Virus record (IMG/VR): IMGVR_UViG_3300030106_006724
Span: 1-64,000 of that record
Length of the DNA: 64,000 nt
Strand: one strand, 5' to 3'
From: a virus
Shown: in pieces, positions 17,403-41,292 of the stretch
Numbering within the stretch: the stretch's first letter is position 1
How the letters are laid out: each line of letters opens with the position of its first letter
The notes under the pieces: model-generated
Seen by the model: the letters and a program-made list of their open reading frames with translations, nothing else
Databases searched by the model: none
What the model was told of the DNA's origin: nothing
Translations under genes and position numbers: made by a program

Positions 17403-18002
17403 ATGAGGATACTTTTAATAGCAAATGCTAGAACAGGTTCTACCGTACTTTATAAAGCTTTAAGTGATATCTTAGGTTTAAAAAAGTACGGTGAACCTTT
17501 CAATTATGGAATGCGCAGAAAAGCTAATTCCTTAATTAGAAAGTACCCTTTTCCTTTAGAAGATAACTGTATAGTAAAAACTTTAACAAGGCATATTCCG
17601 GAAGAATTCGAAAGCCAAGAAATTAATTTTTATGACGAATGGAAAAGAGATTTCGATAAAGTTATCTTATTAGCAAGAGAAAACCTACAGGATATATACG
17701 AAAGTCAAGATTTTTTTAGACATGTAAAAAAGCATTGGCATCAAAAGTACAAATACGAAACTCCTTATACTTTTAGAAGAGAACTTTATAAGTTTATTAC
17801 TGATTCTTACGATTATATAAAATGGTATAGTAAAAAATCTCACATACCTATTACATGGTACGAAGATTTATATAGTGGAGATAAAGAAAAAATAAAAGAA
17901 TGCATAGATAACTGGGAGATAGATATATCTGTAGATGATCTTTACAACTACGTAAACCCAGAAAAAAGATACAGACAATTTACTAAACAAACTATAATAT
18001 GA
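17403..18002 (+). CDS. Sulfotransferase-like protein (Stf0-like P-loop)
   Basis: ARTGST PAPS-binding loop, EPFN, YEDL; paralog of 40717..41292. Confidence 0.7.
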   Translation: MRILLIANARTGSTVLYKALSDILGLKKYGEPFNYGMRRKANSLIRKYPFPLEDNCIVKTLTRHIPEEFESQEINFYDEWKRDFDKVILLARENLQDIYESQDFFRHVKKHWHQKYKYETPYTFRRELYKFITDSYDYIKWYSKKSHIPITWYEDLYSGDKEKIKECIDNWEIDISVDDLYNYVNPEKRYRQFTKQTII

Positions 18003-18439
18003 TATACTGGTTTACAGGACAACCTGGCTCAGGAAAAACAGTACTAGCCGATTTACTTAAAGAACAAGCATTACCTCACGCTTATAGGATAGATGGTGAT
18101 GAAATGAGAGATTTATTTGAAAATAAAGATTATTCTATAAAAGGTAGAATAGCTAATATAGATGCAGCTCAAAAAATAGCTCATTATTTACATAATCAAG
18201 GTAAAGATGTAATAGTATCATTAGTTTCACCTTATCTTGATCAAAGAGAAGAATTTAAAAAGTTACTAGATTGGCAAATTAATGAAATATATGTTCATTA
18301 TACTAATGAAATTAGAGGTAGAGAAGAGTATCATGTGTTAGGGTATCAAGCTCCTCAATTTAATTACCTTGATATAAATACATCAGAGCAAACACCAGAG
18401 CAAAGTTTAGATATAATAAGAGAAAAACTTAAAGTATAA
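17999..18439 (+). CDS. cysC: Adenylyl-sulfate (APS) kinase
   Basis: WFTGQPGSGKT, IDGD, LVSPY, YQAP. Confidence 0.85.
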   Translation: MIYWFTGQPGSGKTVLADLLKEQALPHAYRIDGDEMRDLFENKDYSIKGRIANIDAAQKIAHYLHNQGKDVIVSLVSPYLDQREEFKKLLDWQINEIYVHYTNEIRGREEYHVLGYQAPQFNYLDINTSEQTPEQSLDIIREKLKV

Positions 18440-18440
18440 A

Positions 18441-18779
18441 ATGGAGAAAAAAAATACATACTTTGTAGATATAGATGGTACTATATTTAAGTATAGAAAA
18501 TTTGAAACTTACGAAACTAGTAAAGCTGAACCAATCCAAAGTACAGTAGACTATTTAAAAAATAAAAAAGAACATGGTCATATGATAGTATTAACCACAG
18601 CTAGACCTGACTGGTTATATGAGCATACAGTAAGAGAATTAAAAGTAAATGATATACCTTTCGATAGATTAATAATGGGTATTGAAAGAGGACCTAGATT
18701 TTTAATTAATGATAAGGATCCTAATATAAAAGAAGATAGAGCTACAGCAATTAATTTAATTAGAGATAAAGGAATATGA
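18441..18779 (+). CDS. HAD-family phosphatase (small, capless)
   Basis: FVDIDGT, TTAR, INDK. Confidence 0.75.
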   Translation: MEKKNTYFVDIDGTIFKYRKFETYETSKAEPIQSTVDYLKNKKEHGHMIVLTTARPDWLYEHTVRELKVNDIPFDRLIMGIERGPRFLINDKDPNIKEDRATAINLIRDKGI

Positions 18780-19129
18780 AAAAATACAGTATGTTTATAG
18801 GTAGATGGCAACCATGGCATAAAGGTCATAGGTGGTTGATTGACCAAAGATTAAATGAAGGTAAAAACGTATGGATAGCTATTAGAGATGTAGAACCTAA
18901 CGAAAATCAACCCTGGACTCCTCAAGAAGTGATGGAGAATCTTGAAAAAGAATTATCAGATTTAATAAACGAAGGTAGAATATTTATAAGTATAATACCT
19001 GATATTGAATCAGTTAACTACGGAAGAGGAGTAGGTTATGAAATTATTGAACATATACCCCCTCAGAGCATAAAGGAAGTTTCAGCTACTAGTATTAGAG
19101 CTGAAATGAGAAAAGATGGAAAACTCTAA
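18776..19129 (+). CDS. Minimal HxGH nucleotidyltransferase
   Basis: GRWQPWHKGH and SATSIR motifs. Confidence 0.75.
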   Translation: MKKYSMFIGRWQPWHKGHRWLIDQRLNEGKNVWIAIRDVEPNENQPWTPQEVMENLEKELSDLINEGRIFISIIPDIESVNYGRGVGYEIIEHIPPQSIKEVSATSIRAEMRKDGKL

Positions 19130-19604
19130 AGTTTGGAATAAAGATTATTGTAAAGAAGTTATTAATTATTTCTGTAACGAACAAGTTATGGAAAATTATT
19201 CAAGTGATAATAGAAAATATAAAAGAAATTTATTATTTGAACGTGATAAAGGTAATAACTGGGTATGGAAATCAGTCGACAATCTTATAAAATCTAATCT
19301 TGGAGAAAATTATTTTTTATCTACTTGGTTGATAGGTTTAAGATATGATAAAAACGATTTTTTTACTGAGCATAGAGACGGAGAAGGAACTGCAAATAGG
19401 TACCTTTCCGGTGGAATAGAATTATCAGACCAAAATAGTTACAAAGGAGGTATTTACGTACTAAAAGGTAGTAATAGTAGGAGTAAACAAGGAGAGTTAT
19501 TTACTCACGATCCGTATGTACTGCATGAAATTACAAAAGTTACTAAAGGTACTAGATATAGTCTTCATTTTTGCATAGGGAAAAAACCTGATACTTTAAT
19601 TTAA
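19116..19604 (+). CDS. 2OG-Fe(II) oxygenase (prolyl hydroxylase-like)
   Basis: HRD, YKGG, HEITKV..GTRYSL. Confidence 0.8.
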   Translation: MENSKVWNKDYCKEVINYFCNEQVMENYSSDNRKYKRNLLFERDKGNNWVWKSVDNLIKSNLGENYFLSTWLIGLRYDKNDFFTEHRDGEGTANRYLSGGIELSDQNSYKGGIYVLKGSNSRSKQGELFTHDPYVLHEITKVTKGTRYSLHFCIGKKPDTLI

Positions 19605-19813
19605 TGGTAGCTAAAAAAAGACATATAGTTAAGACAATAACTTGGAGAATAGTTGGTACTTTAGATACTTTTTTACTATCTTGGTTAATAACAGGTAGTG
19701 CTAAGATAGGAGCAGCTATAGGAGGAATAGAAATAGTAACGAAAATGATATTATACTATTTTCATGAAAGAGCATGGTATAAATTCAGTAAATTTGGTAT
19801 TAAAAAAAAATAA
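19604..19813 (+). CDS. DUF2061-like small membrane protein
   Basis: KTITWRIVGTLDT...YYFHERAW. Confidence 0.8.
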   Translation: MVAKKRHIVKTITWRIVGTLDTFLLSWLITGSAKIGAAIGGIEIVTKMILYYFHERAWYKFSKFGIKKK

Positions 19814-20533
19814 GTGAAAAATTTTGATATTTTAAGAACATCAGAATACGTAGTTACTGAAAGTAAACTTGTAAATAGCTTTAAGTCTAAATTTGAGTAT
19901 ATAGATATCAAAGTTGATCCTAATAATTATAGAGAAACTTATATTTTAAATAACGGAAACGAACCTCAAATTAGATATCAAATGCAATCCCAAGTTAGGA
20001 AGACAAAACTACAAGATATCTTAGTATATTTAAATTTTCCTATTAATTTTTTTAGTGATGATATTAAATCTACTACTCATGGTAATTTTGATTATAGTTT
20101 AGTAAAGCAATTCTGCGAAGAATTAGATATAGAAAATATTACTGGAAAAGAAATAGCTGAAAAATCAGGAGAATGGCGAGATCAATTCTTACCTGAACAG
20201 TATTGGTCTTTTATAAAATATGGACAATTAGGGGTTCCTTTAATTGATAGACCTCATCAATTATTTTTCGGTTCTTCTCATAGTTTATTTTCAGCTCATC
20301 TTGCTAAATTTAAATCAATGCCTTTATATATTCAAATTCCTAAACCTAAGAAAAAGTGGTTTATGAAGATGCCAGGTACAGTTTTTAAATCTAAATTTAC
20401 TTATTTATTTTATATAGATTTAGAGGAGAAAAGTTTATGGGGTAAAAAATCTTATGATCCTAATAGTTTAGGAGAAGGTTATGAGTTTAACGATGATGAA
20501 AAAAATTTAAATAACTATACTAAGTTGTTATGA
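19814..20533 (+). CDS. Hypothetical protein
   Basis: 239 aa ORF with GTG start. Confidence 0.55.
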   Translation: MKNFDILRTSEYVVTESKLVNSFKSKFEYIDIKVDPNNYRETYILNNGNEPQIRYQMQSQVRKTKLQDILVYLNFPINFFSDDIKSTTHGNFDYSLVKQFCEELDIENITGKEIAEKSGEWRDQFLPEQYWSFIKYGQLGVPLIDRPHQLFFGSSHSLFSAHLAKFKSMPLYIQIPKPKKKWFMKMPGTVFKSKFTYLFYIDLEEKSLWGKKSYDPNSLGEGYEFNDDEKNLNNYTKLL

Positions 20534-20688
20534 TTAAAATAGATGTAAAAAAAGGTGATACTATTTTAGTAGGTCGCTTTAAAAATAAAAGAACTAAAGT
20601 AAAAACTATAGAGTATGATGAATTCGGTATGCCTATAATAAACGGTAGACCTGCTTGTACTTTTAGACTAGTAAAAAACCCAAGATAA
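20530..20688 (+). CDS. Small hypothetical protein (52 aa), not in ORF track
   Basis: MIKIDVKKGDTILVGRFKNKRTKV...GMPIINGR; fills the gap and overlaps both neighbours (ATGA/TAATG). Confidence 0.7.
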   Translation: MIKIDVKKGDTILVGRFKNKRTKVKTIEYDEFGMPIINGRPACTFRLVKNPR

Positions 20689-22346
20689 TGTTACAATTAG
20701 GAATATCAGCCTTTTACCATGATTCTGCAGCTTGTATAGTTAAACATGGCGAAGTATTAGCAGCAGCTGAAGAAGAAAGATTTACTGAAATAAAACACGA
20801 TTCTTCTTTCCCTATTAATGCAATAGCATATGTATTATCAGAAGTAGGTATAGAAGATATAAACGATATAGATGAAGTATGTTGGTATGAAAAACCTAAA
20901 GTTAAAAAAAATAGGGTACTTAGAACGTTTAACAAGCATTTTTTCAAAACTTTTAAAAATAGACTTATTTTTCTTTATAACTATTATTTTAATTCTCCTA
21001 AAAATTTACTTAAACGTCATTTCCAATATAAAGGTATAATTAAATATACTGATCATCATTTATCTCATGCCGGTTTTAGTTATTATACCAGTCCTTTTAA
21101 AAATGCTGCTATTTTAACTGTAGACGGTGTTGGAGAATGGGAAACTATTACTATTTCTAAAGGTGAAGGTGCTGATATTACTAAAATGTATAGTATAGAC
21201 TTTCCTAATTCTTTAGGTATGCTGTATTCAACTGTAACAGCATTTCTAGGATTTAAACCTAACGAAGGAGAATACAAAGTTATGGGTTTAGCTCCTTTTG
21301 GAGATCCTTTAAAATATATTAATAAGCTATCTAAAATATTCGATAGAAAAGGTAATATTGATCAAAAATACTTTACATGGGAATATTCTGAAAAAATAAT
21401 GTTCAATATAGAATTTTGTAAACTTTTAGGATTACCTCCTAGATTTAAAGAAGAACCTATAACTCAAGATCATAAAGATTTAGCAGCAGCATTACAAAAA
21501 GTATACGAAAGAGAATTTGAAAAATTAGTACATAAAGCAAAAAAGTTAACTGGATCCCCTAATATTTGCTTAGGAGGCGGCTGCGCTTATAACGGAGTAG
21601 CTAATGTACTTGCCTATAATCATTTTAGATCAGTATATATTCCTTTTGCTCCTTCTGATGCTGGGTCTGCTATAGGAGCTTGTCTAATAAATAATCCTAT
21701 CTCAGGGTATGCAACTGATAATGGTTGTCCTTATTTAGGTAATGGTTATACTAATGAAGAAATTGAAAATATATTAGATAATTACAAAGATAAAGTTAAA
21801 GTACAATTATTTAATGAGAGTACTCTATTAGAAAAAACAGCTGAAATAATTAACGATCAGAAGATAGTTGCTTGGTTTCAAGGAAGAATGGAATTCGGTG
21901 CAAGAGCATTAGGAAATAGATCAATATTAGCTTCTCCTAGGGATGCAAGTATGAGAGATAAACTAAATAGAGTAATTAAAAAGAGAGAAGGATTTAGACC
22001 TTTTGCTCCTTCAGTTACAGTTAATCAAGCTTCTAAATGGTTTAATTTAAAACAAAGCGTACCGTATATGAATATAGTTTTACAAGCTAAGACTAATAAG
22101 TTTAAAGCAGCAACTCATATAGATGGATCATGTAGAGTACAGACAGTTGATAAATATCGAAATCCATTATATTTTAAACTAATAAAAGAAATAGGTAAAA
22201 AATCAGGTGCTGAAGTAGTTTTAAATACTTCATATAATCTAAAGGACCAGACTATTACTAGAACACCTCAACAAGCTATAGAAAGATTTTTAGATTCAGA
22301 TATAGATAATTTAGTTATAAATAAATTTTTAATTAGTAAAAAATGA
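20688..22346 (+). CDS. Second carbamoyltransferase (NodU/CmcH family)
   Basis: YHDSAA, EEERF, HHLSHA, DGVGE, GEYKVMGLA, EFGARALGNRS. Confidence 0.92.
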   Translation: MLQLGISAFYHDSAACIVKHGEVLAAAEEERFTEIKHDSSFPINAIAYVLSEVGIEDINDIDEVCWYEKPKVKKNRVLRTFNKHFFKTFKNRLIFLYNYYFNSPKNLLKRHFQYKGIIKYTDHHLSHAGFSYYTSPFKNAAILTVDGVGEWETITISKGEGADITKMYSIDFPNSLGMLYSTVTAFLGFKPNEGEYKVMGLAPFGDPLKYINKLSKIFDRKGNIDQKYFTWEYSEKIMFNIEFCKLLGLPPRFKEEPITQDHKDLAAALQKVYEREFEKLVHKAKKLTGSPNICLGGGCAYNGVANVLAYNHFRSVYIPFAPSDAGSAIGACLINNPISGYATDNGCPYLGNGYTNEEIENILDNYKDKVKVQLFNESTLLEKTAEIINDQKIVAWFQGRMEFGARALGNRSILASPRDASMRDKLNRVIKKREGFRPFAPSVTVNQASKWFNLKQSVPYMNIVLQAKTNKFKAATHIDGSCRVQTVDKYRNPLYFKLIKEIGKKSGAEVVLNTSYNLKDQTITRTPQQAIERFLDSDIDNLVINKFLISKK

Positions 22347-23107
22347 GATTAACAGGTACTGAAAATGTAAGAATAGTAGGAATACCTAAAAATGCAAGTC
22401 AATCTATTAAGAGAATAGGTTTAGATAACCCTAATATTTTTAACTGGGACTACGATATACCGAATGCTAATAGAGAAAAACATATACATTTTACTGAAAA
22501 AGAATTCTACAAAGAAGATTTAACAGTAATATTTCCTTTTAGAAACGAATGGGAAAGAGTAAAAAGCAATTTCCTTCAATTTTTTAGAGATCATTTAGAG
22601 TTAATAGGAGCATTTGATTCTCGAGATGAAGAAAAAAGTTATAAACGAGTTTTACATTTTATAAAAACCAGTCTTAAACGTCCTGAGCTTAATATAACTA
22701 ATAACCCTCGTAATCTAGTTATTAATACTGAATTAGATAATAGATTAAGTTATTTTAATGAAACAGTATTCAATTTTTTTATAGATAATATTTTTAATAA
22801 CAGTAACTGGAAAGGTATGAAGATGTACTTTGTTGATTTAGAAGCTTTACGTAAACAGCAATTTATAGATTGGCTTATAAAGTTAGATAGTAGATTTGAG
22901 GGTTGTACTGTTCCTGAAGCTAATTTAGCTTCTTCTAATTGGCATAAAACTTTAATAGTTAAAGCATTTAATGAAGTTCGAGATGAAAAACTATATTTAG
23001 ATTATACTAAATTATCTGACTGGAATACTAACGTTAAAGTTAATGTTGATAATAGTAGCAAGATTTGGAGATTGATAAAAAATACTAATTATTATAAAAG
23101 TATATAA
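22343..23107 (+). CDS. Sulfotransferase family 2-like protein
   Basis: IPKNASQSI 5'-PSB-like loop; RNEWERVKS 3'-PB-like motif. Confidence 0.55.
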   Translation: MRLTGTENVRIVGIPKNASQSIKRIGLDNPNIFNWDYDIPNANREKHIHFTEKEFYKEDLTVIFPFRNEWERVKSNFLQFFRDHLELIGAFDSRDEEKSYKRVLHFIKTSLKRPELNITNNPRNLVINTELDNRLSYFNETVFNFFIDNIFNNSNWKGMKMYFVDLEALRKQQFIDWLIKLDSRFEGCTVPEANLASSNWHKTLIVKAFNEVRDEKLYLDYTKLSDWNTNVKVNVDNSSKIWRLIKNTNYYKSI

Positions 23108-23223
23108 TGAAAGAAGATAAAACTAAAGAGCAAATAGAGAAAGAAAAGAAGCTAGAAGAAGAATTTCAAAAAAAATTGAAAGAGCTTAAAAAAAGAGATC
23201 CATTTATTTATAAAAATTTTTAG
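23107..23223 (+). CDS. Tiny charged protein (38 aa), not in ORF track
   Basis: MKEDKTKE...LKKRDPFIYKNF; TAATG coupling. Confidence 0.55.
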   Translation: MKEDKTKEQIEKEKKLEEEFQKKLKELKKRDPFIYKNF

Positions 23224-23227
23224 TAAT

Positions 23228-23260
23228 AGTTGGATAATAGAATATTTATACTTATATTAT
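23228..23260 (+). promoter_or_regulatory. Promoter motif class A heading the queD/queE operon
   Basis: TTGGAT 23230-23235, 17 nt, TATATT 23253-23258. Confidence 0.8.
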
Positions 23261-23269
23261 AGTATAATT

Positions 23270-23299
23270 AGTGTCGTAGCACCACTTTAAAAACACAAG
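23270..23299 (+). ncRNA. preQ1-I riboswitch-like aptamer
   Basis: AGTG-TCG-TAG-CA-C-CACT-TTAAAAACA-CAAG between promoter and ATG; matches class I preQ1 pseudoknot layout. Confidence 0.6.
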
Positions 23300-23300
23300 A

Positions 23301-23561
23301 ATGAAAAAAGACGTATTAAAGGTTATAGAAAAAGAACTCTACGATAGAGATCTAAGATACAATTCACACAAAGAAGTTAACCTCGAAAACTTACCGAATA
23401 CCACCGAATATCCGGATGCTAAATTACACCAGATAATATCATTTATAAAATCTGGTATTAGGATAGCAGCTTGTATTGCTGGTATTATGGGCTACATATG
23501 GATTGGTTTCTTAGGACTTGCTATTGCAGAGGTAGTTGGTATAATAGAAGAATTAGTTTAG
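23301..23561 (+). CDS. Small membrane protein
   Basis: C-terminal hydrophobic hairpin (SFIKSGIRI...AEVVGIIEELV). Confidence 0.65.
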   Translation: MKKDVLKVIEKELYDRDLRYNSHKEVNLENLPNTTEYPDAKLHQIISFIKSGIRIAACIAGIMGYIWIGFLGLAIAEVVGIIEELV

Positions 23562-23563
23562 TT

Positions 23564-24040
23564 ATGAATAAGAATAAATTTTTATCTACAAAAGTATTTG
23601 ATGGATTTAGTACAGTATTTCGTCAATGGAAAGCAGAAACTACTCACTGTAAATTTTTACACGGATATGGAGTATCTTTTAAGATTTGGTTCGAAGGGGA
23701 ATTAGATGAAAGAAACTGGGTATGGGATTTCGGTGGAATGAAAAGAGCCAAAGGAACTATTGATGGTAGATCTCCTAAAGAGTGGTTTGATTATATGTTT
23801 GATCATACATTTATAGTAGCAGAAGATGATCCATATTTAGAATCTTTTAATAAGATGGACGATGCTGAAGTTGCACAGGTTAGAGTAGTAGAAGCAACTG
23901 GAGCTGAAAAATTTGCTGAATTAGTTTATTATAAAGTTAATGAATTCATTACTTTAGAAACTGAAGGCAGAGTAAAAATAGCGAGAGTAGAATTTAGAGA
24001 GCACGGTAAAAATAGTGCTATATTTGAACCTAGTATATAA
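23564..24040 (+). CDS. queD: 6-carboxy-tetrahydropterin synthase (divergent)
   Basis: HCKFLHGY, DFGG, FDH, AE, E-x4-SA; start moved to ATG 23564. Confidence 0.85.
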   Translation: MNKNKFLSTKVFDGFSTVFRQWKAETTHCKFLHGYGVSFKIWFEGELDERNWVWDFGGMKRAKGTIDGRSPKEWFDYMFDHTFIVAEDDPYLESFNKMDDAEVAQVRVVEATGAEKFAELVYYKVNEFITLETEGRVKIARVEFREHGKNSAIFEPSI

Positions 24041-24042
24041 TA

Positions 24043-24819: not shown

Positions 24820-25217
24820 TGGATAAAACTTTTATTACATGGAATCAGGTAAATAAATTACTCGACAAAATCCATGACCAAACTCAAGGAGGATTTGATT
24901 ATGTTTCTGGAATACCTAGAGGGGGATTAATTTTGGCAGTATTGTATTCGCATAGATTTGGAGTTGAATTTATGGAATACCCTAGTAATCATTATCATAA
25001 TTTATTAATTTTAGATGATATAGCTGATAGTGGTAAAACATTAAAAAAATGGACTGAAAAATTAAATATTCCTTACTTTGCTACTCTTCATTATAAGAGA
25101 AGTTCATGCGTAGAACCAGATTTTTACGGCAGAAAAATGATAAAAGAAGATAGATGGATAGTATATCCTTGGGAAAATAAAGACTCAAAAACTATACAAA
25201 ATTATTTGGAAAATTAA
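24819..25217 (+). CDS. Type I phosphoribosyltransferase (Gpt-like)
   Basis: GIPRGG, ILDDIADSGKT, WIVYPWE. Confidence 0.85.
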   Translation: MDKTFITWNQVNKLLDKIHDQTQGGFDYVSGIPRGGLILAVLYSHRFGVEFMEYPSNHYHNLLILDDIADSGKTLKKWTEKLNIPYFATLHYKRSSCVEPDFYGRKMIKEDRWIVYPWENKDSKTIQNYLEN

Positions 25218-25237: not shown

Positions 25238-25240
25238 GAT

Positions 25241-31472: not shown

Positions 31473-31489
31473 GTTAATAAAACGGTTAT

Positions 31490-31921: not shown

Positions 31922-31924
31922 TAT

Positions 31925-34252: not shown

Positions 34253-34262
34253 AATTAATTAT

Positions 34263-35213
34263 ATGATTAGAACAGCAGAATGTATAACACCTAAGCATCC
34301 AGATAAAATCTGTGATAGAATATCAGATGCTATTTTAGATGCATGTTTAAAGCAGGATCCTAATACAAGAGCTGCTATAGAAACTATGGGAGGTCACGGA
34401 ATTATAACCGTAACCGGCGAACTAACTACAACAGCCTTTGTTGATATTCCGGAAGTAGTAAAATCAGTATACGGTAAAGATATAGGAGTACAAACCAATA
34501 TAGTAATGCAATCACCAGAAATAGCTCAAGGAGTAGATACTGGCGGAGCAGGTGATCAAGGTATTATGATAGGATATGCTTGTACTGAAAATGATGAAAT
34601 GGTACCTCTAGAGTATTATTTTGCAAGAAAGTTATGTGAATCTATCTATATAAATCATCCTTATGATGGAAAAACTCAAGTTACTATATTAGAAGATGAT
34701 TCATTAAATGTAGTAGCATCGTTTCAAAATACTTCTACTGAAGACTTAATACATCATATAAAAGATTTCTTTGCAGAAACAAATTATACCATCAATTCTC
34801 TACATTGCAACCCAGCTGGAGAATGGAATTTAGGAGGCTTTGATGCTGATACAGGATTAACAGGAAGAAAATTAGCTGTAGATAACTATGGTCCTAGAAT
34901 ACCTTTAGGTGGAGGAGCTTTTAGCGGTAAGGATAGTTCTAAAGTAGATAGATCAGCAGCATATATGGCTAGAAGAATAGCTACAGACTATATAGGAAAA
35001 TATAAAGCTAGTGAAGTTTATGTAACTCTAGCTTATGCTATAGGACATGATAAACCTTTACAAGCTACAGCTTTAGTAGATGGAAAAGAAATTTATATAA
35101 ACGACTATGATTTATCTCCAAAAGGAATAGTAGAGTTTTTAGGTTTAAAACAACCTATTTTCTACGAAACTTCTAAATGGGGGCATATGGGAAAAAACTT
35201 TTCATGGAATTAG
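34263..35213 (+). CDS. metK: S-adenosylmethionine synthetase
   Basis: HPDKICD, GAGDQG, GLTGRK, GGGAFSGKD.SKVDRS. Confidence 0.95.
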   Translation: MIRTAECITPKHPDKICDRISDAILDACLKQDPNTRAAIETMGGHGIITVTGELTTTAFVDIPEVVKSVYGKDIGVQTNIVMQSPEIAQGVDTGGAGDQGIMIGYACTENDEMVPLEYYFARKLCESIYINHPYDGKTQVTILEDDSLNVVASFQNTSTEDLIHHIKDFFAETNYTINSLHCNPAGEWNLGGFDADTGLTGRKLAVDNYGPRIPLGGGAFSGKDSSKVDRSAAYMARRIATDYIGKYKASEVYVTLAYAIGHDKPLQATALVDGKEIYINDYDLSPKGIVEFLGLKQPIFYETSKWGHMGKNFSWN

Positions 35214-35245
35214 TTGCCTATTAAATGAAAATAGTATATATTTAT
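35212..35245 (+). promoter_or_regulatory. Promoter motif class A (overlapping TATTTAT)
   Basis: TTGCCT 35214-35219, 17 nt, TATATT 35237-35242. Confidence 0.75.
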
Positions 35246-35254
35246 TATATATTG

Positions 35255-35761
35255 AAAGATCGACTCGAGAGCGATTTATTTTTAATATGTTAAACCGCGA
35301 GCTTAGGCCGCACAAATTTAAATGATATGAGTACATTATTTTATAGACCATCCCCTTTCGACATTTTAGTTCGAAATTTTTTTCAAGACGCAAGCCAATT
35401 TTCACCGCTTGCTGAAACCAAATTACAACATCCTGTAGATATCTATCAGACTGATAAAAGTCTTAATATTGATATAGCTTGTACAGGGATCTCTAAAGAA
35501 GAGATCGAGATTCAAATTCAAGATAATATCTTAAAAATCAATTACGATAAAGGTAAAGATGATAAATTAGAGTATATACATAAAGGTATAGCTAAAAGAT
35601 CGTTTAACTTAGGTTGGAAGATTGATAGTAAGTTTAATCTTGGAAAAGCAAACGCTAAGTTTGAAAATGGGTTGTTAGCCATTAGTATCCCTTATGCTAA
35701 AGGGTCAGAGTTAAAAACTTTGAAAATTAGCTAAATTTTTTTGTTCTCGAGTTGGATCTTT
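35255..35761 (+). repeat. Imperfect inverted repeat (arms 35255-35274 and 35741-35761) enclosing hsp20
   Basis: AAAGATC-GACTCGAGAGCGA pairs with TTGTTCTCGAGTT-G-GATCTTT: 20 pairs, three G.U, one bulge. Confidence 0.75.
35327..35734 (+). CDS. Small heat shock protein (Hsp20/alpha-crystallin)
   Basis: PVDIY, HKGIAKRSF, AKFENGLL.I.IP. Confidence 0.92.
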   Translation: MSTLFYRPSPFDILVRNFFQDASQFSPLAETKLQHPVDIYQTDKSLNIDIACTGISKEEIEIQIQDNILKINYDKGKDDKLEYIHKGIAKRSFNLGWKIDSKFNLGKANAKFENGLLAISIPYAKGSELKTLKIS

Positions 35762-35783
35762 TATAAAAATTTATTATATTATA
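35750..35783 (+). promoter_or_regulatory. Promoter motif class A for groES-groEL
   Basis: TTGGAT 35752-35757, 17 nt, TATATT 35775-35780. Confidence 0.8.
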
Positions 35784-35798
35784 TTAAAAGAAAGTTAT

Positions 35799-36110
35799 AT
35801 GCCAAAGTTATTAAACCCCGCAAATGATAGAGTACTTATCAAGCCTATAGATGAAGGTGAACAGACTTACGGGTCTATAGTTATTCCTGATATGGGTAAA
35901 GAAAAACCTGAAATGGGAGAAGTACTAGCCGTAGGACCTGGTAGATTATCAGAATATGGCAAAATGATACCGATAAGATCTTGTAAAGTAGGAGATATAG
36001 TTTTAGTTCCTAAAATAGGTTCTCTAAGAATAGATTTCGATGGAGAAGAATATTATATTACAAGAGATAGTGAAATATTAGCAGTAGTAAAAGAATCAAA
36101 TAATGAGTAA
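35799..36110 (+). CDS. groES: Co-chaperonin GroES
   Basis: P..DRVLI, GSIVIPD..KEKP, AVGPG, KVGD. Confidence 0.95.
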   Translation: MPKLLNPANDRVLIKPIDEGEQTYGSIVIPDMGKEKPEMGEVLAVGPGRLSEYGKMIPIRSCKVGDIVLVPKIGSLRIDFDGEEYYITRDSEILAVVKESNNE

Positions 36111-37746
36111 AAAAATTACATTTTCAAAAGACGCTAGGAATAAATTACTAAGCGGAGTTAATCAATTAGCAAATGCTGTAACAGCAACGTTAGGCCCTTC
36201 CGGAAGAAACGTTATTATAGAAAAAGATATGGGTAATCCAGTATCTACTAAAGATGGAGTTACGGTAGCTAAATCGATAGAGTTAAAAGATAAAGTAGAA
36301 AATTTAGGAGCACAAATAGTAAAACAAGCAGCTATTAAAACTGCTGACTATGCTGGTGATGGTACTACTACGTCTACTTTATTAGCTCAAGAAATTTTAA
36401 AAGAAGGTATAACTAGAATGGAAGCTGGTAGTAATGCAGTAGATATCAAAAAAGGTATAGATAACGCTACTGAAAAAGTTACTGATTTCTTATCTAGCAT
36501 ATCTAAAGATATTACAGATGAAGTACAATTAGAACAAATTGCTACTATATCTGCAAATAATGATAAAGAAGTTGGAAAGTTAATATCAACAGCCATGGAC
36601 AAGGTAGGGAGAGATGGAGTAGTTACGATTGAAGAGTCGAAGACAGGAGAGACGTATCTGGAAACAGTAGAAGGAATGCAATTCGACAGAGGTTATAAAT
36701 CTCCATATTTTGTTACGGACAATAATTCTATGACATCAGTACTGAAGGATCCTTTTATTCTTATTGTCGATAAGAGGTTAAATCAGGTCAAAGAGTTACT
36801 TCCTATCTTGGAGGCTGTTTCTCAACAGAATAAATCGTTATTAATTATAGCAGAAGATATAGACGGAGAGGCTTTATCTACTATGGTAGTTAATAAAATG
36901 AGAGGAATATTAGCCTGTGCTGCTGTTAAAGCTCCTGATTTTGGAGATAGAAGAAAGGCTATCATGGAAGATATAGCTGAATTAACCGGAGGTCAAGTAG
37001 TATCATCCGAAAAAGGTATGAGATTAGAAAAGTTTGATACTGGATGGTTAGGTAAGGCTAATAAAGCTACTATATCTAAAGAGTCTACTACTATTATAGA
37101 TGCTCAAGGATCTGAAGAATCTATTAATCAAAGAATAGCTTATCTAAAAGATCTTATTGAAGAATCAAATTCTCCTTTCGAAAAAGAAAATTTACAAAAT
37201 AGATTAGCTAAATTTATAGGAGGAGTTGCTGTAGTTAATGTAGGCGGTCATACTGAGATAGAAATGAAGGAAAAGAAAGATAGAGTTGAAGATGCTTTAC
37301 ATGCTACTAAAGCTGCATTAGAAGAAGGAGTTTTACCTGGAGGAGGAGTAGCATTATTAAATGCTGCAAATAATTTAGTTCAAAGCTTAGATGGAGTAGA
37401 TAATCGTGATGAAAGAACTGGTTACGATATAGTTATTAATGCTATAGAACAACCTTTCTTTAAAATACTAACTAATGCAGGATTATCAGATACTTATATT
37501 ACTAATATTGAAACTAATATTAAACAAACAGGAGACGTATGGGAAGGATTTAATCCTAGAGTAGATAAATCTGTTAATATGTTTAACGAAGGAATTATCG
37601 ATCCTACTAAAGTAACGAGATTAGCATTAGAAAATGCTTCCTCTGTTGCCGGTACTTTACTTATAACTGAAGCAGTAGTATCAAAAGGAAAAGAAAAAGA
37701 AAATAAACCAGTCGGAGGCGTAGATCCAAATATGCTTTTAGGCTAA
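36103..37746 (+). CDS. groEL: Chaperonin GroEL
   Basis: TLGPSGRN, TKDGVTVA, GDGTTT, GMQFDRGY, GIIDP. Confidence 0.97.
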   Translation: MSKKITFSKDARNKLLSGVNQLANAVTATLGPSGRNVIIEKDMGNPVSTKDGVTVAKSIELKDKVENLGAQIVKQAAIKTADYAGDGTTTSTLLAQEILKEGITRMEAGSNAVDIKKGIDNATEKVTDFLSSISKDITDEVQLEQIATISANNDKEVGKLISTAMDKVGRDGVVTIEESKTGETYLETVEGMQFDRGYKSPYFVTDNNSMTSVLKDPFILIVDKRLNQVKELLPILEAVSQQNKSLLIIAEDIDGEALSTMVVNKMRGILACAAVKAPDFGDRRKAIMEDIAELTGGQVVSSEKGMRLEKFDTGWLGKANKATISKESTTIIDAQGSEESINQRIAYLKDLIEESNSPFEKENLQNRLAKFIGGVAVVNVGGHTEIEMKEKKDRVEDALHATKAALEEGVLPGGGVALLNAANNLVQSLDGVDNRDERTGYDIVINAIEQPFFKILTNAGLSDTYITNIETNIKQTGDVWEGFNPRVDKSVNMFNEGIIDPTKVTRLALENASSVAGTLLITEAVVSKGKEKENKPVGGVDPNMLLG

Positions 37747-37764
37747 ACAATTAAATTTTAAATT

Positions 37765-37932
37765 ATGAATAAGCAAGAATTATTTGAACAAATCGTTTCA
37801 CATTTTGAAGAATTTGAAGCACATCATAGTGGTACTACAAAAGTATCACAAAGAAGAGCAAGAGCTGCAATTGGTTCTATTAAGAAGTTAATTACTCCTT
37901 ATAAGAAAGCAAGTGTAGCGGAGTCGAAGTAG
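37765..37932 (+). CDS. Histone H1-like (Hc1-type) small basic protein, not in ORF track
   Basis: MNKQELFEQI...GTTKVSQRRARAAIGSIKKLITPYKKASVAESK resembles Bacteroidota Hc1-like proteins. Confidence 0.65.
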   Translation: MNKQELFEQIVSHFEEFEAHHSGTTKVSQRRARAAIGSIKKLITPYKKASVAESK

Positions 37933-37970
37933 GGGGCGTTTTTCTCTCTTTGCCACGCGCGAATTTGAAG

Positions 37971-37997
37971 AACCTTCCGGAGACGGAGGGTTTTTTT
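37971..37997 (+). terminator. Intrinsic terminator
   Basis: AACCTTCCG-GAGA-CGGAGGGTT followed by a T run. Confidence 0.85.
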
Positions 37998-38021
37998 GTA
38001 TATTTATAGTAAACGTTTTAT

Positions 38022-38837
38022 ATGAAAGGAGACTACTACTCTCAATTTAAAAGGGTTTTTATGCGTAAACATGCAAATAGTATAGTGAATTATACTACCC
38101 CGGATAACGAAGAGCTATTTAAAGAGAACCTTGCAAAATACCCCGATAATAAAGAGTTATTACATTATCGAGATAACCCTATAAAGTATGCGTTAAATGA
38201 TTATGGTTTTAGAACACCGGATAATTTTGATAATGCTGAAGAAGAGGGTAATGTATTTCTGGGTTGTAGTCATACTTTTGGTATAGGACATTATTTAGAA
38301 AATACTTGGTCTTGGAGACTTAACCAAAAGATTGGAGGTAAGTTTTGGAATCTATCTGCGCCGGGAACAGGAATAGGAACCGCTGCGCGTTTGTTGGGAG
38401 AATTTAAAAATAAATTAAAAATAAAAAATATATTTCTCTACACTCCTTTCTGTTATAGGTATGAGGTTTATGAAGCTAAAAAAGGGGTATGGATAAATAT
38501 ATCTCCTGCTAATGTCTTTCACCATTATATAGAAGTATCAGATGAAGTAAGATTCATCTTAGGACAAGAAGAAAATATGAGATTAAATTGGAGAACTAAT
38601 CTTGCTGCTATAAAATACTATGCTCATGAAGTAGGAGCTAAATTATTTAGTATTGAAAATATAGATTTTTATGTTAATAATAATGATAACTTTCCAGAAA
38701 TAGCTAGAGATATATTACATCCAGGAGTTAGTTATCAAGATTTAGTTTATGATAAATTTTTAGATGCATATAAAAATAATTTACCATTATGGGAAGAACC
38801 TGCTAGCAGTTTTAAACCGTTAAAGACTTTGATATAA
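38022..38837 (+). CDS. SGNH-like hypothetical protein
   Basis: NDYGFR, FLGCSHTFG, NLSAPG, ARDILHPG; ends KTLI. Confidence 0.6.
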   Translation: MKGDYYSQFKRVFMRKHANSIVNYTTPDNEELFKENLAKYPDNKELLHYRDNPIKYALNDYGFRTPDNFDNAEEEGNVFLGCSHTFGIGHYLENTWSWRLNQKIGGKFWNLSAPGTGIGTAARLLGEFKNKLKIKNIFLYTPFCYRYEVYEAKKGVWINISPANVFHHYIEVSDEVRFILGQEENMRLNWRTNLAAIKYYAHEVGAKLFSIENIDFYVNNNDNFPEIARDILHPGVSYQDLVYDKFLDAYKNNLPLWEEPASSFKPLKTLI

Positions 38838-38953
38838 TGAAAAAGATAGTAGCTACAATGAAGGAAATATATGATGCGATGAAACCTAACGTTTATCGTA
38901 ATAGAAAGAAATATACTCGTAAAACAAAACATAAGAATAAAAATGAAAATTAA
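38837..38953 (+). CDS. Tiny basic protein (38 aa), ArfA-like tail, not in ORF track
   Basis: MKKIVATMKEIYDAMKPNVYRNRKKYTRKTKHKNKNEN; TAATG coupling. Confidence 0.55.
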   Translation: MKKIVATMKEIYDAMKPNVYRNRKKYTRKTKHKNKNEN

Positions 38954-39425
38954 TTTATTAGATTATATACATACTATAAAAGACTTTCCTAAAGAAGGGA
39001 TTTACTTTAAAGATATACAACCTCTATTAGCTGATACTGTAGCATTTAAACAAGCTATAACTGAAATGGGTAGATTAGTTGAACAACCTGATTATTGGGT
39101 TGGTATAGAATCTAGAGGTTTTATCTTTGCTTCTGCTTTAGCCGCTACTTTCGGAGGAGGGTTAAGATTGATAAGAAAGGAAGGTAAATTACCTCCTGAT
39201 TTTTTAGTTAAAGAATCTTACGACTTAGAATACGGCAGTGATACTATAGAAATGAAACGAGGTAATGGATCAGTAATATTAGTTGATGATGTAATCGCTA
39301 CCGGAGGCACTATGAATGCATCGGAAAACATCGTATCTAATGCAGGTTATGATTTATTAGATAAATTAGTATTAATAGATATTGGAATAGCTGAGAACAA
39401 CGTTAAATCTTTAATTAAATATTAA
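38943..39425 (+). CDS. apt: Adenine phosphoribosyltransferase
   Basis: DFPKEGI.FKDI, ESRGF, RKEGKLP, LEYG, VDDVIATGGT. Confidence 0.93.
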   Translation: MKINLLDYIHTIKDFPKEGIYFKDIQPLLADTVAFKQAITEMGRLVEQPDYWVGIESRGFIFASALAATFGGGLRLIRKEGKLPPDFLVKESYDLEYGSDTIEMKRGNGSVILVDDVIATGGTMNASENIVSNAGYDLLDKLVLIDIGIAENNVKSLIKY

Positions 39426-39967
39426 TGGAAAATAAAATACTTTTACTTTCTGCTACTGACTACGAACATGACTGTAAAGACTTATTTGGTATACCGATTC
39501 ATATCACAGGTATAGGTAAAATTAATGCAGCAGTAAATAGTACTAGATTGATACAAAAATACGATCCTGATATAGTTATCAACTTTGGTTCTTGTGGCAA
39601 TTTAAAAGATTATCAAATAGGAGAAGTATTAGAAGTAGGAACGGTAATAAACGATTTAGATACTCTAGGATTTTATAATCAAATGTCTAATATATTAAAT
39701 AAAGATTTAAATATAAAATGTTTAACTACTGATCATATGTACGATAGCTCTCATGATGATTATGTAGAGTCATATATGGAAAAAATAGATGAATGTGATA
39801 TAGTTGATATGGAACTATTTAGTATAGCAGAAAGTTGTAAAATTGCTAAAAAATTCTTATATTCATATAAATGGGTTAGCGACGATGGGAGTAATGACGA
39901 ATGGTTAGAAAACGCTAAAGCCGGTTTTAATAATTTTAAACAAATATTTAAATCTAAACATCTATGA
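39425..39967 (+). CDS. MTA/SAH nucleosidase-like (PNP_UDP_1 family)
   Basis: TGIGKINAA, INFGSCG, VDME, KWVSD. Confidence 0.85.
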   Translation: MENKILLLSATDYEHDCKDLFGIPIHITGIGKINAAVNSTRLIQKYDPDIVINFGSCGNLKDYQIGEVLEVGTVINDLDTLGFYNQMSNILNKDLNIKCLTTDHMYDSSHDDYVESYMEKIDECDIVDMELFSIAESCKIAKKFLYSYKWVSDDGSNDEWLENAKAGFNNFKQIFKSKHL

Positions 39968-40203
39968 GTGATTCAGTAAAAAAATGGCACGAAACTATTT
40001 CAGAAGATATACAAGCAGTTTATGAAACAGCAGAAGTAAGAAGAGAAAAAAAGATAAATAAGTTATTAAATGTAGCTAAAGAATCTGGTAAAATGACTGA
40101 GATAATGCTAAGAGTAGTAGAAGTTCAAAAAGAATTCAATACTAGTTCATTTTTGTTAGGTTTAGAAATAGCCTGTGATGAATTATTAAAAGATGGTGCC
40201 TGA
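39964..40203 (+). CDS. Hypothetical protein
   Basis: 79 aa ORF. Confidence 0.55.
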   Translation: MSDSVKKWHETISEDIQAVYETAEVRREKKINKLLNVAKESGKMTEIMLRVVEVQKEFNTSSFLLGLEIACDELLKDGA

Positions 40204-40717
40204 TAAAAAAGATGTAGTACAATTAGTATTACATAAAGAAAATTATATTCCTATACAAGAGATCGATAACTCATTCTCCTATAAATGGTTTTATAAGTTA
40301 GATCAAGAACACGACTTTCATTCTATTATAAAAAGTATTAACTTAATGCTAGAAGATTGGAATGAAGCACCTACTTTTGATGATATAGTATCTAGATTCG
40401 AAGCAGGAAGTTTTGTAATGCTTCAATATTATAAAAATGAACCTATAGGGTGGTTTTGGGGGAATACGAGACTAACTTACGACTGGAAAAATATAGTAAA
40501 AGAATTACCCTCAGTTAATTCAATGTATGGAGGAGGTTCTTATATTACTAAAGATAGAAACATTCCTAAAAATACTGGTATTCAGCTTTATACTAAATTT
40601 TTTAATGATATATTTGATTTTTATAAATCAGCTTATGGTTATGTAGATTCATGGAATAAAGCTCCTATAAGAATTAATAAAAGATCAGGAGCTATCGAAA
40701 TAAATAATCTTTTATAA
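40193..40717 (+). CDS. Hypothetical protein, possibly GNAT-fold
   Basis: PIGWFW, YI.K.R...TG, VDSWNKAP are GNAT-like elements. Confidence 0.45.
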   Translation: MVPDKKDVVQLVLHKENYIPIQEIDNSFSYKWFYKLDQEHDFHSIIKSINLMLEDWNEAPTFDDIVSRFEAGSFVMLQYYKNEPIGWFWGNTRLTYDWKNIVKELPSVNSMYGGGSYITKDRNIPKNTGIQLYTKFFNDIFDFYKSAYGYVDSWNKAPIRINKRSGAIEINNLL

Positions 40718-41292
40718 TGAGAGTATGTATTTATGCTCAATCTAGATCTGGCTCTACAGTATTAAGTTTATATGTATCTAATCAATTAGGTCTTTATAAT
40801 ATTGCAGAACCTTATAATCCAAGAAATTCAGCTAGAGGAAGATACTTTCCTGATGAAGCAGTTTGGTTAGATCCTGGAGTATCGGTTAAGTTTTTATGCG
40901 GAGAGCTTAGAGTTGAACAGCAAGAATCATTAGATAAGTATTTTGATAAAGTAATTATCTTAACTAGAGAAGATGATATAGCTGGTGCTGAAAGTCATAT
41001 GATGGGGCTTATAACTAGAATATGGGAACCATATAAGTATAATTTAAAAGAATTTAACGAAGAAGAAAGAATTAAACTTCAGTATAATATAAAATGGAGA
41101 ACTGAAACTAGAGAGCAATTAACTAATTTACCTTACTTTCAAGTAACTTATGAGGAATTATTTTATAAAAAAGTTGGAATTACGAGATTAAATTCTTATC
41201 TTAATATAGAAAAGGATAACTCGGATATAGGTATGTTTGATTTAAAGCATAAGTATAGACAGGATCCTATAAATAAAAAGTCTCTAATTTGA
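40717..41292 (+). CDS. Sulfotransferase-like protein
   Basis: QSRSGST, EPYN, FDKVIILTRE, YEEL, KYRQ; ends KSLI. Confidence 0.7.
   Translation: MRVCIYAQSRSGSTVLSLYVSNQLGLYNIAEPYNPRNSARGRYFPDEAVWLDPGVSVKFLCGELRVEQQESLDKYFDKVIILTREDDIAGAESHMMGLITRIWEPYKYNLKEFNEEERIKLQYNIKWRTETREQLTNLPYFQVTYEELFYKKVGITRLNSYLNIEKDNSDIGMFDLKHKYRQDPINKKSLI

What the first reader, a model, noticed from the sequence alone, without database searches (positions are those of the whole stretch)
17403..41292. Unrelated modification enzymes share a C-terminal [S/T]-[L/I]-I tail
Seen: four dispersed enzymes from three different folds end in near-identical tails after a short Lys-containing linker: sulfotransferase 17403..18002 (..TKQTII), 2OG-Fe oxygenase 19116..19604 (..KKPDTLI), SGNH-like 38022..38837 (..KPLKTLI) and sulfotransferase 40717..41292 (..NKKSLI). 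Weaker cases are 22343 (..YKSI), 19814 (..TKLL) and 40193 (..NNLL). Core replication and metabolic enzymes do not end this way. Known: S/T-x-hydrophobic-COOH is the class I PDZ-ligand pattern. Inference: a docking or sorting tag that recruits interchangeable tailoring enzymes to a shared scaffold or substrate (virion glycan or protein), or into the capsid, or a degron. This would be a plug-in modification system that I have not seen described.
Basis: partly seen in the sequence, partly recalled or inferred. Interest (0 to 1): 0.78.

Follow-up and report, generated by a model that had tools for sequence, protein, structure and literature searches.

The report
Shared end-tag on phage tailoring enzymes
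Unrelated modifying enzymes of this uncultured marine phage and many relatives all end in the same short tail (about Lys-Thr/Ser-Leu-Ile), a selected protein label that travels with one ligase/self-cutting gene and whose reader is still unknown.

Summary
All four tails are at the stated coordinates, and a fifth (KKTLI) lies at contig 78600-79718. That is 5 of 141 ORFs against 0.24 expected.

The tail is conserved in homologues: 93 of 120 SGNH relatives and 88 of 127 sulfotransferase-like representatives end in two hydrophobic residues.

In 80 related viral loci, gene families are either almost always tailed or never tailed. Synonymous codon use and gene-junction type show the selection acts on the peptide, not the DNA. 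AlphaFold models place the tail as an unstructured add-on.

Tailed genes cluster around an ATP-grasp-like/Hint protein. Across eight whole records, that protein is the only untailed family present in all five tail-bearing genomes and in none of three complete tail-less ones. 2OG oxygenases carry the tail in 9 of 11 cases when that gene is present and 0 of 8 when it is absent.

No phage PDZ domain was found, and Hsp20 is not specific to tail-bearing genomes.

Five paper searches found no description. This scan has already reported the same tag in at least eight other genomes.

The parts
17403..18002 (+). Sulfotransferase-fold enzyme. The tail K-Q-T-I-I is encoded at 17985-17999.
   Evidence: Searches give the sequence. 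The AlphaFold model has pLDDT 93.7, and the last 8 residues are coil. Foldseek best matches are TPST2 and SULT1B1. Of 127 family representatives, 88 end in two hydrophobic residues.
19116..19604 (+). 2OG-Fe(II) oxygenase. The tail K-K-P-D-T-L-I is encoded at 19581-19601.
   Evidence: Family assignment. Of 9 homologues, 8 end in two Leu/Ile residues after a variable 7-8-residue linker that follows the conserved SLHFC[IV].
38022..38837 (+). SGNH/GDSL-fold enzyme. The tail K-P-L-K-T-L-I is encoded at 38814-38834.
   Evidence: Of 120 homologues, 93 are tailed. Catalytic motifs are invariant. The model has pLDDT 91.2, falling to 54 and then 38 over residues 261-271. Foldseek matches SGNH hydrolases.
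40717..41292 (+). Second sulfotransferase-like enzyme, a paralogue of 17403. The tail K-K-S-L-I is encoded at 41275-41289.
   Evidence: Paralogy (E 6e-9). Twelve of 14 homologues end KKSLI or KKSII; the two most distant end KKTLQ. Two further parts lie outside the window on the same contig and so cannot be listed as rows. (1) Contig 78600-79718 (+) is a methyltransferase fused to a 2OG oxygenase, ending L-K-K-T-L-I; all 3 relatives in the loci are tailed. (2) Contig 73807-76125 (+) is the untailed ATP-grasp-like protein with Hint domains that travels with the tailed enzymes.
17999..19129 (+). Untailed cofactor-supply genes between two tailed genes: APS kinase (17999-18439), a HAD-like protein (18441-18779) and a nucleotidyltransferase-like protein (18776-19129).
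   Evidence: Pfam. APS kinase relatives (cluster 5) are tailed in 0 of 17 cases.
19604..19813 (+). DUF2061 small membrane protein, untailed. It recurs in the islands.
   Evidence: Pfam. Cluster 6 is tailed in 0 of 16 cases.
20688..22346 (+). Carbamoyltransferase, an untailed tailoring enzyme. It is an exception to the rule.
   Evidence: Pfam. Cluster 19 is tailed in 0 of 8 cases.
35327..35734 (+). Phage Hsp20, a candidate hub that was tested and found not specific.
   Evidence: Pfam. Found in 15 of 22 records, including the complete tail-less records G013 and G019.
19814..20533 (+). Weak case ending ..TKLL; family unknown.
   Evidence: Sequence. No Pfam hit. No orthologue in 21 records.
40193..40717 (+). 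Weak case ending ..NNLL. The ending is not conserved.
   Evidence: Orthologues end ..DNLL..KFIQ and ..KFIK, so 1 of 3 keeps it.
22343..23107 (+). Weak case ending ..YYKSI. It has only one terminal hydrophobic residue; family unknown.
   Evidence: Sequence. No Pfam or PHROG hit. No orthologue in 21 records.

Best explanation
The tail is about K-(K)-[T/S/N/K]-[L/I]-[I/L]-COOH. It is a short linear motif kept by selection on the protein. It sits at the end of a flexible extension of variable length that has been appended to otherwise unrelated tailoring enzymes: sulfotransferase-like, 2OG oxygenase, SGNH, flavin halogenase, radical SAM, DUF6071, DUF6734 and unnamed families.

The tail marks the enzymes that belong to one accessory module of a large group of uncultured aquatic phages. 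That module is built around an untailed ATP-grasp-like protein that carries self-cutting Hint domains or a Cys-rich C-terminal peptide.

I infer that the free hydrophobic C-terminus plugs each enzyme into one common partner, so that interchangeable enzymes are brought to a shared substrate. That substrate is probably a peptide or protein made by the ligase/Hint gene. The partner is most likely that ligase/Hint protein or a complex containing it.

Shown here: the tag exists, is selected as a peptide, is family-specific, is predicted unstructured, and co-occurs with the ligase/Hint gene.
Inferred: that it is a docking tag, and who reads it.
For: 1. Conservation in independent sequences:
- 93 of 120 SGNH homologues
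- 88 of 127 sulfotransferase-like representatives
- 8 of 9 oxygenase homologues

2. Gene families are either tailed or not. In 80 loci with 1,670 ORFs, 79 clusters have 5 or more members. Of these, 56 round to 0% tailed and 12 to 80-100%. Runs of 10-14 consecutive tailed genes occur.

3. Selection acts on the peptide:
- Terminal Ile and Leu use all synonymous codons at roughly internal frequencies.
- 56 of 86 genes from tail-capable families keep the tail when the next gene is more than 20 nt away.
- 140 of 174 overlapping junctions in other families have no tail.

4. The tail is an appended, unstructured extension:
- pLDDT falls to 38-54 in the SGNH model and 50-70 in the sulfotransferase model.
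- Tailed SGNH members have a median of 46 residues after the catalytic His, against 23 in untailed members.

5. Link to the ligase/Hint gene:
- It is in 16 of 22 tail-dense loci against 2 of 58 sparse loci.
- It is the only untailed family in all 5 tail-bearing whole records and in 0 of 3 complete tail-less records.
- Within one 2OG family, tails occur in 9 of 11 members in genomes with that gene and 0 of 8 without it. For SGNH the figures are 7 of 16 and 0 of 6.

6. Cofactor-supply genes in the islands, such as APS kinase, are untailed.
Against: - No binding was tested, and no co-fold was possible with these tools.
- The co-occurrence with the ligase/Hint gene rests on related genomes and could reflect shared descent of one phage clade. 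Only eight whole records were profiled.
- Clustering was by BLAST, so a fast-evolving phage-encoded reader could have been missed.
- The carbamoyltransferase in the same islands is untailed (0 of 8).
- In this genome most tailed genes lie 33-56 kb from the ligase/Hint gene.
- The record is only 54% complete by CheckV.
- Basic residues followed by a terminal Ile also resemble the MuA ClpX degron (..RRKKAI, PMC12723719). A host reader cannot be excluded.
Confidence: 0.5

Rival explanations
1. The tail is a degron. A host AAA+ protease such as ClpXP reads it in the manner of the MuA C-motif-2 signal, giving the tailoring enzymes a short, timed life.
For: The tail is at the extreme C-terminus, is unstructured, and has Lys at -4 (67 of 208) and -5 (46 of 208) followed by aliphatic residues with Ile last (106 of 208). 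The MuA degron used experimentally is CILEQNRRKKAI (PMC12723719, methods passage).
Against: A host degron should be just as useful without the ligase/Hint gene. Yet the same 2OG family is tailed in 0 of 8 members in genomes lacking that gene. The untailed APS kinase and carbamoyltransferase sit in the same operons. The tail has a polar residue between the lysines and the hydrophobic pair, which MuA does not.
Confidence: 0.2
2. The tail docks onto the phage small heat-shock protein (Hsp20), imitating the C-terminal I-x-I/V anchor that fills the groove of the alpha-crystallin domain.
For: Hsp20 lies near the islands: in 5 dense and 0 sparse loci for cluster 52, and at 35327-35734 here, 2.3 kb before the SGNH gene. 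All five near-complete or larger tail-bearing records have it. This idea came from an earlier scan note, e1-5362792.
Against: Hsp20 is also present in the complete tail-less records G013 and G019, and overall in 15 of 22 records. The tail has two adjacent hydrophobic residues with a polar residue at -3 (K, T, S or N in 126 of 208), not the alternating I-x-I pattern.
Confidence: 0.08
3. The tail is a substrate rather than a dock. The ATP-grasp-like ligase, or a Hint thioester, modifies or joins the free C-terminus or the nearby lysine of the tailed enzymes.
For: The motif is always at the very end, so the free carboxylate matters. The co-occurring gene has weak ATP-grasp and TTL-like leads in the ESM Atlas, at score 0.81, which that tool rates as a lead only.
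Against: The ligase assignment is weak. A profile search of PDB sequences matched only the Hint part. The lysine is not invariant. No precedent was tested.
Confidence: 0.07
4. The tail is a sorting signal into the capsid or another phage-built compartment, like encapsulin cargo-loading peptides.
For: The architecture matches cargo proteins: enzyme, then a flexible linker, then a short shared C-terminal peptide, on unrelated enzymes that are encoded together.
Against: The gene that tracks the tail is not a shell protein. Ten to fifteen different cargo enzymes would be unusual. No virion data are available.
Confidence: 0.07
5. The tail is a by-product of AT-rich composition, stop/start overlap or a DNA/RNA signal at gene ends. 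Alternatively it is an internal structural element of each fold.
For: The genome is 30% G+C. Many tailed genes overlap the next start as TAATG or ATGA. Tail frequency is highest at overlapping junctions, 96-98%.
Against: The split by family within the same loci argues against composition. The tail persists with gaps over 20 nt, most overlapping junctions elsewhere lack it, and synonymous codons vary freely. The tail has low pLDDT in both models. The cyanophage Syn9 cluster of the same enzyme types lacks it: 1 of 47 CDS examined ends in two hydrophobic residues.
Confidence: 0.04

Closest known systems
Encapsulin cargo-loading peptides (recalled, not tested here)
   Same: A short shared peptide at the extreme C-terminus, behind a flexible linker, on unrelated enzymes encoded next to one partner gene.
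   Different: The partner gene here is an ATP-grasp-like/Hint protein, not an HK97-fold shell. The motif is different, and no compartment is known.
Peroxisomal targeting signal 1 (-SKL-COOH read by the TPR domain of Pex5). Recalled, and also named by earlier scan notes.
   Same: A three- to five-residue tag that depends on the free C-terminus and is carried by many unrelated enzymes.
   Different: PTS1 is a eukaryotic organelle import signal. No reader specific to the tail-bearing genomes, other than the ligase/Hint protein, appeared in the eight-genome profile. TPR domains were not searched for directly.
ClpX C-motif-2 degron of MuA (..RRKKAI; PMC12723719)
   Same: Basic residues followed by an aliphatic C-terminus ending in Ile, in an unstructured position.
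   Different: The tail has a polar residue between the lysines and a hydrophobic pair. Its presence depends on a phage gene, not only on the host.
Class I PDZ ligands ([S/T]-x-hydrophobic-COOH)
   Same: The four tails in this window fit the pattern.
   Different: Across families, Ser/Thr holds that position in only 64 of 208 tails. No PDZ domain was found in 5 tail-bearing records.
Cyanophage tandem dioxygenase/halogenase neighbourhoods (Iyer et al. 2010, PMC2938197; passages read)
   Same: The same enzyme classes (2OG dioxygenases, tryptophan halogenases, sulfotransferases) are clustered in marine phage genomes and were proposed to modify peptides or metabolites.
   Different: The passages I read mention no shared tail. 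In Syn9 itself only 1 of 47 CDS examined ends in two hydrophobic residues.

Membership tests
Class I PDZ ligand | Ser/Thr at position -3 counted from the last residue as -1 (P-2), with a hydrophobic last residue | tested here: not met
   Among 208 distinct tails, position -3 is T in 34, S in 30, K in 37 and N in 25. In the SGNH family it is N 30, T 21, S 18 and K 15 of 120.
Class I PDZ ligand | A PDZ domain available to read it | tested here: not met
   PF13180 and PF17820 were found in 0 of 5 tail-bearing records, two of them at least 94% complete. The controls were positive in 14 of 14 reference genomes. Host PDZ proteins were not examined.
ClpX C-motif-2 degron (MuA type) | Basic residues directly followed by an aliphatic C-terminus | tested here: inconclusive
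   K at -4 in 67 of 208 and at -5 in 46 of 208; I or L last in 158 of 208. A polar residue at -3 separates the two parts. MuA tag sequence taken from PMC12723719.
ClpX C-motif-2 degron (MuA type) | ClpXP-dependent degradation conferred by the tag | not testable with these tools
   Needs a degradation assay.
sHSP C-terminal I-x-I/V anchor | Two aliphatic residues separated by one residue | tested here: not met
   The hydrophobic residues are adjacent (-2 and -1). Position -3 is K, T, S or N in 126 of 208 tails.
sHSP C-terminal I-x-I/V anchor | Co-occurrence with an sHSP | tested here: inconclusive
   Hsp20 is in 15 of 22 records, including the complete tail-less records G013 and G019.
Bacterial beta-clamp-binding motif (QL[SD]LF) | Gln at the start and Leu-Phe at the end of a five-residue motif | tested here: not met
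   The tail logo has no Gln and Phe is a minority. A different protein family in these phages does end TQLSLF (cluster 106).
Encapsulin-type cargo-loading peptide | Short C-terminal peptide behind a flexible linker on co-encoded unrelated enzymes | tested here: met
Encapsulin-type cargo-loading peptide | An adjacent shell protein that binds the peptide | not tested
   The gene that tracks the tail is an ATP-grasp-like/Hint protein. Shell-fold neighbours were not searched for.
SGNH/GDSL hydrolases (38022-38837) | Block I Ser, block V Asp-x-x-His, and the SGNH fold | tested here: met
   S83, D230 and H233 are invariant in 81 sequences. Foldseek matches TesA and CgnD.
PAPS-dependent sulfotransferases (17403, 40717) | Sulfotransferase fold with an N-terminal P-loop-like PAPS-binding motif | tested here: met
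   Foldseek matches TPST2, SULT1B1 and Stf0 with probability 1.00 and TM 0.50-0.56. R10 and G12 are nearly invariant in ..PRSGST... APS kinase is the next gene. Sequence-only matches are weak, E 0.02, and activity is untested.

The most novel reading that the evidence does not exclude
The tail is the plug of a plug-and-socket system. The ATP-grasp-like/Hint protein acts both as maker or carrier of a Cys-, Tyr- and Trp-rich peptide and as the socket. Any enzyme that acquires the five-residue tail is recruited to modify that peptide. Recognition would then be the reverse of ordinary RiPP leader-peptide recognition: the enzyme carries the peptide and the substrate protein carries the receptor. 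Phages could swap tailoring chemistries simply by moving a tail.
Probability: 0.3. Interest if true: 0.88.

Novelty: new variant of a known kind. Interest (0 to 1): 0.72.

Why it matters
If the tail is a docking tag, it is a minimal, portable address of about five residues that a large group of aquatic phages uses to assemble changing sets of hydroxylases, halogenases, sulfotransferases, esterases and radical SAM enzymes around one product.

That would explain why these puzzling enzyme arrays are common in marine phage genomes. It would give a simple sequence rule for finding every member of the pathway in metagenomes. It would point to an unknown phage-made modified peptide or protein. It would also offer a small tag for recruiting enzymes in engineered systems.

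Tried and rejected
- Close-relative scans of viral contigs with the single SGNH and oxygenase proteins found nothing. The alignment-based scan worked.
- No relatives of the SGNH or sulfotransferase-like proteins were found in 50,697 cultured or deposited phage records. The oxygenase had one weak hit.
- No SGNH relative was found in 185,579 species genomes with the patterns used. No cultured host or isolate is therefore available.
- The listing of cluster members gave no organism names.
- Composition, overlap and DNA-motif explanations were rejected and on the family split.
- Intramolecular packing was rejected on low pLDDT. The models are monomers, so this is not proof.
- A phage PDZ reader was rejected.
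- Hsp20 as a specific marker was rejected, although it cannot be excluded as a reader.
- A shared N-terminal counterpart motif on tailed enzymes, as in head-to-tail docking, was not seen.
- The linkers between Hint domains (AP, RGGF, LKAVPT, VLS, YKR and others) do not resemble the tail in the 13 proteins examined.
- The small ORF after the ligase/Hint gene ends ..KAKHL or ..AHS, not with the tail.
- A profile of the ligase/Hint N-terminal part matched only Hint or intein chains in PDB sequences. The Atlas leads to ATP-grasp and TTL are at noise level.
- Paper searches found no description of the tag. Supplements are closed, so the supplementary alignments of PMC2938197 could not be checked.

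Full report
**What is in the window.** The window is the first 64 kb of an 89.2-kb viral record. The record is 30% G+C with nearly all genes on the + strand. CheckV rates it 54% complete. The only nucleotide match among deposited phages is a 445-nt stretch shared with Flavobacterium phages, so the host is not established.

- 17403-18002 ends ..TKQTII
- 19116-19604 ends ..KKPDTLI
- 38022-38837 ends ..KPLKTLI
- 40717-41292 ends ..NKKSLI

A fifth..LKKTLI, ends a methyltransferase/2OG-oxygenase fusion at contig 78600-79718.

**Is it more than chance?** [ST][LI]I at the C-terminus occurs in 5 of 141 ORFs. The frequency of the same tripeptide inside the same proteins predicts 0.24 (Poisson P = 5.6e-6). 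None of 100,000 shuffles of the last three columns reached 5.

The motif was chosen after looking at the data, and the five cases are not independent. 17403 and 40717 are paralogues (E 6e-9). The oxygenase part of 78600 is weakly similar to 19116 (E 0.04-0.1). I therefore treat the in-genome statistic as a lead and tested it on independent sequences.

**Conservation in homologues.**
- SGNH-like protein: of the 120 best homologues listed (289 significant; five are the window's own protein or identical to it), 93 end in two residues from LIVMF. Position -1 is I in 74 and L in 25. Position -2 is I in 53 and L in 41. Position -3 is N 30, T 21, S 18, K 15. Position -4 is K in 54.
- Sulfotransferase-like protein 17403: among representatives of 50%-identity clusters, 88 of 127 that are at least 180 residues long end in two hydrophobic residues (150 listed of 294 hits). 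The consensus is ..KYRQ-x(3-8)-K-K-[TS]-[LI]-[IL]. Most untailed members stop within three residues of the basic motif.
- Oxygenase: 8 of 9 homologues end in two Leu/Ile residues behind a variable linker.
- 40717: 12 of 14 homologues end KKSLI or KKSII, and the two most distant end KKTLQ.

**The tail is a property of particular families.** An alignment-based scan returned 80 viral loci around SGNH relatives. These total 1.28 Mb and 1,670 ORFs by my own caller. After clustering, 79 clusters have five or more members. Of these, 56 round to 0% tailed, 12 to 80-100%, and 11 lie between.

Tailed families include:
- several 2OG-FeII_Oxy_3 clusters (the largest is 66 of 73 tailed)
- a tryptophan halogenase
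- sulfotransferase-like proteins
- DUF6071 and DUF6734
- part of a radical SAM family
- GDSL-like proteins and several unnamed families

In 22 loci there are six or more tailed genes, with runs of 10-14 consecutive tailed genes.

Across 208 distinct tails the logo is I/L at -1 (158), L/I at -2 (168), K/T/S/N at -3 (126), K at -4 (67) and K at -5 (46).

The cyanophage Syn9 dioxygenase/halogenase cluster, described by Iyer et al. 2010 (PMC2938197; passages read), lacks the tail. Only 1 of the 47 CDS I examined, out of 76 annotated features in that stretch, ends in two hydrophobic residues.

**Selection acts on the peptide, not the nucleotides.** Many tailed genes overlap the next start as TAATG or ATGA, so I tested junction effects.
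- In tail-capable families the tail is present in 56 of 86 genes followed by a gap over 20 nt, and in 103 of 106 genes with 1- or 4-nt overlaps.
- In other families, 140 of 174 such overlaps have no tail.
- Terminal Ile codons are ATA 60%, ATT 34% and ATC 7%, against 47%, 47% and 7% internally.
- Terminal Leu codons use TTA, CTA, TTG, CTT and CTC in near-internal proportions.

Composition or a DNA/RNA signal cannot explain a pattern that splits by family within the same loci.

**Folds and where the tail sits.**
- SGNH protein: it has invariant GCSHTFG and DxxH motifs. Its confident model (pLDDT 91.2) matches SGNH hydrolases. Residues 261-271 fall to pLDDT 54 and then 38.
- 17403: the model (pLDDT 93.7) matches tyrosylprotein and cytosolic sulfotransferases. 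The last eight residues are coil, and eight residues have pLDDT 50-70.
- Tailed SGNH members carry a median of 46 residues (range 17-53) after the catalytic His. Untailed members carry a median of 23.

The tail is therefore an appended, flexible extension, not part of each fold. These are monomer models, so packing in an oligomer is not excluded.

**Context.** Next to the sulfotransferase gene lie an APS kinase, a HAD-like protein and a nucleotidyltransferase-like gene. A DUF2061 protein and a carbamoyltransferase are nearby. All are untailed.

In the islands, the recurring untailed gene is an ATP-grasp-like protein. It is followed either by Hint domains or, after an ..HN junction, by a Cys-rich peptide of 30-40 residues. 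This genome's copy is at contig 73807-76125, outside the window.
- It occurs in 16 of 22 tail-dense loci and 2 of 58 sparse loci.
- It occurs in 12 of 21 whole records. That is 9 of the 10 records whose SGNH is tailed, and 3 of the 11 whose SGNH is not.
- One of those three, G011, has an island of tailed genes around the ligase/Hint gene.

I then fetched seven whole records. Among BLAST families, only two are present in all five tail-bearing genomes (G000, G001, G005, G006, G011) and in none of the three complete tail-less ones (G013, G019, G020). They are the tailed sulfotransferase-like family and this ligase/Hint protein. A thioredoxin and a DegT-type aminotransferase score 4 of 5 and 0 of 3.

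Within single families, the tail follows the ligase/Hint gene:
- 2OG oxygenases: 9 of 11 tailed with the gene present, 0 of 8 without it (Fisher P = 0.0007).
- SGNH: 7 of 16 against 0 of 6 (P = 0.12).

These genomes are related, so the P-values overstate independence.

**Who reads the tail?**
- No PDZ domain is encoded in five tail-bearing records, and Ser/Thr at -3 is not required.
- Hsp20, proposed as the hub in an earlier scan note, is present in all larger tail-bearing records. It is also in the complete tail-less records G013 and G019, and the tail lacks the alternating I-x-I pattern.
- The tail is unlike the QLSLF clamp motif, which a different family in these phages carries.
- It does resemble the MuA ClpX degron ..RRKKAI (PMC12723719). 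However, a host degron would not be expected to depend on a phage gene.
- I found no shared N-terminal counterpart and no tail-like Hint linker.

My reading is a docking or address tag tied to the ligase/Hint module, with that protein the leading candidate partner. A degron, an Hsp20 dock, a ligation substrate and compartment sorting remain as rivals.

**Novelty and limits.** Five full-text searches found no description of the tag. Supplements were closed. After I had reached the conclusions above, a look-up showed that this scan had already reported the same tag in at least eight other genomes, with the same association and an unknown reader. A note on this same genome covers the ligase/Hint gene.

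What this report adds:
- the eight-genome presence/absence profile
- the within-family contrast between genomes with and without the ligase/Hint gene
- the negative tests for PDZ and for Hsp20 specificity

Nothing here demonstrates binding. The weak cases 19814, 22343 and 40193 remain unconfirmed.

Noticed in passing
L007:6169-7668, L013:5068-6561, L015:6427-7920, L036:8068-9564: Some ligase/Hint-family proteins have no second Hint domain. After an ..HN junction they end in a 30-40-residue peptide rich in Cys, Tyr, Trp and Pro. This looks like a releasable core peptide and a plausible substrate for the halogenase, sulfotransferases and oxygenases.
   Followed up: partly
contig 76129-76269 (L082:12129-12269) and the equivalent positions in L009, L012, L013, L020, L040 and L051: A conserved ORF of about 46 residues directly follows the ligase/Hint gene. 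It ends ..KAKHL or ..AHS, not with the tail.
   Followed up: partly
contig 79957-80460; cluster 106 in L045-L047: A 167-residue protein family ends in TQLSLF in relatives (..VQLSLDFS here). This is the classic bacterial beta-clamp-binding pattern and is unrelated to the tail.
   Followed up: no
window 15944-16204: A thioredoxin gene is present in 4 of 5 tail-bearing whole records and 0 of 3 complete tail-less ones. This would fit handling of a Cys-rich product.
   Followed up: partly
window 17999-19129: APS kinase, a HAD-like protein and a nucleotidyltransferase-like gene sit between the sulfotransferase and the oxygenase. This suggests the phage supplies its own activated sulfate.
   Followed up: partly
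window 1390-2715: This 441-residue protein and its relatives in G001, G005 and the tail-less G013 all end ..NLVL with no lysine. It is a family-specific hydrophobic end that is not part of the tag system.
   Followed up: no
L038 (5.7-kb contig): A contig labelled as a giant-virus bin carries two SGNH relatives with tails (..EKFTLI..WKSKII). I did not check whether this is a phage fragment mis-binned.
   Followed up: no
G008, G009, G007, G010 (L014, L034, L021, L039): The densest tail islands lie on 65-103-kb contigs that CheckV rates only 28-40% complete. These phages may therefore have genomes of roughly 200-330 kb.
   Followed up: no
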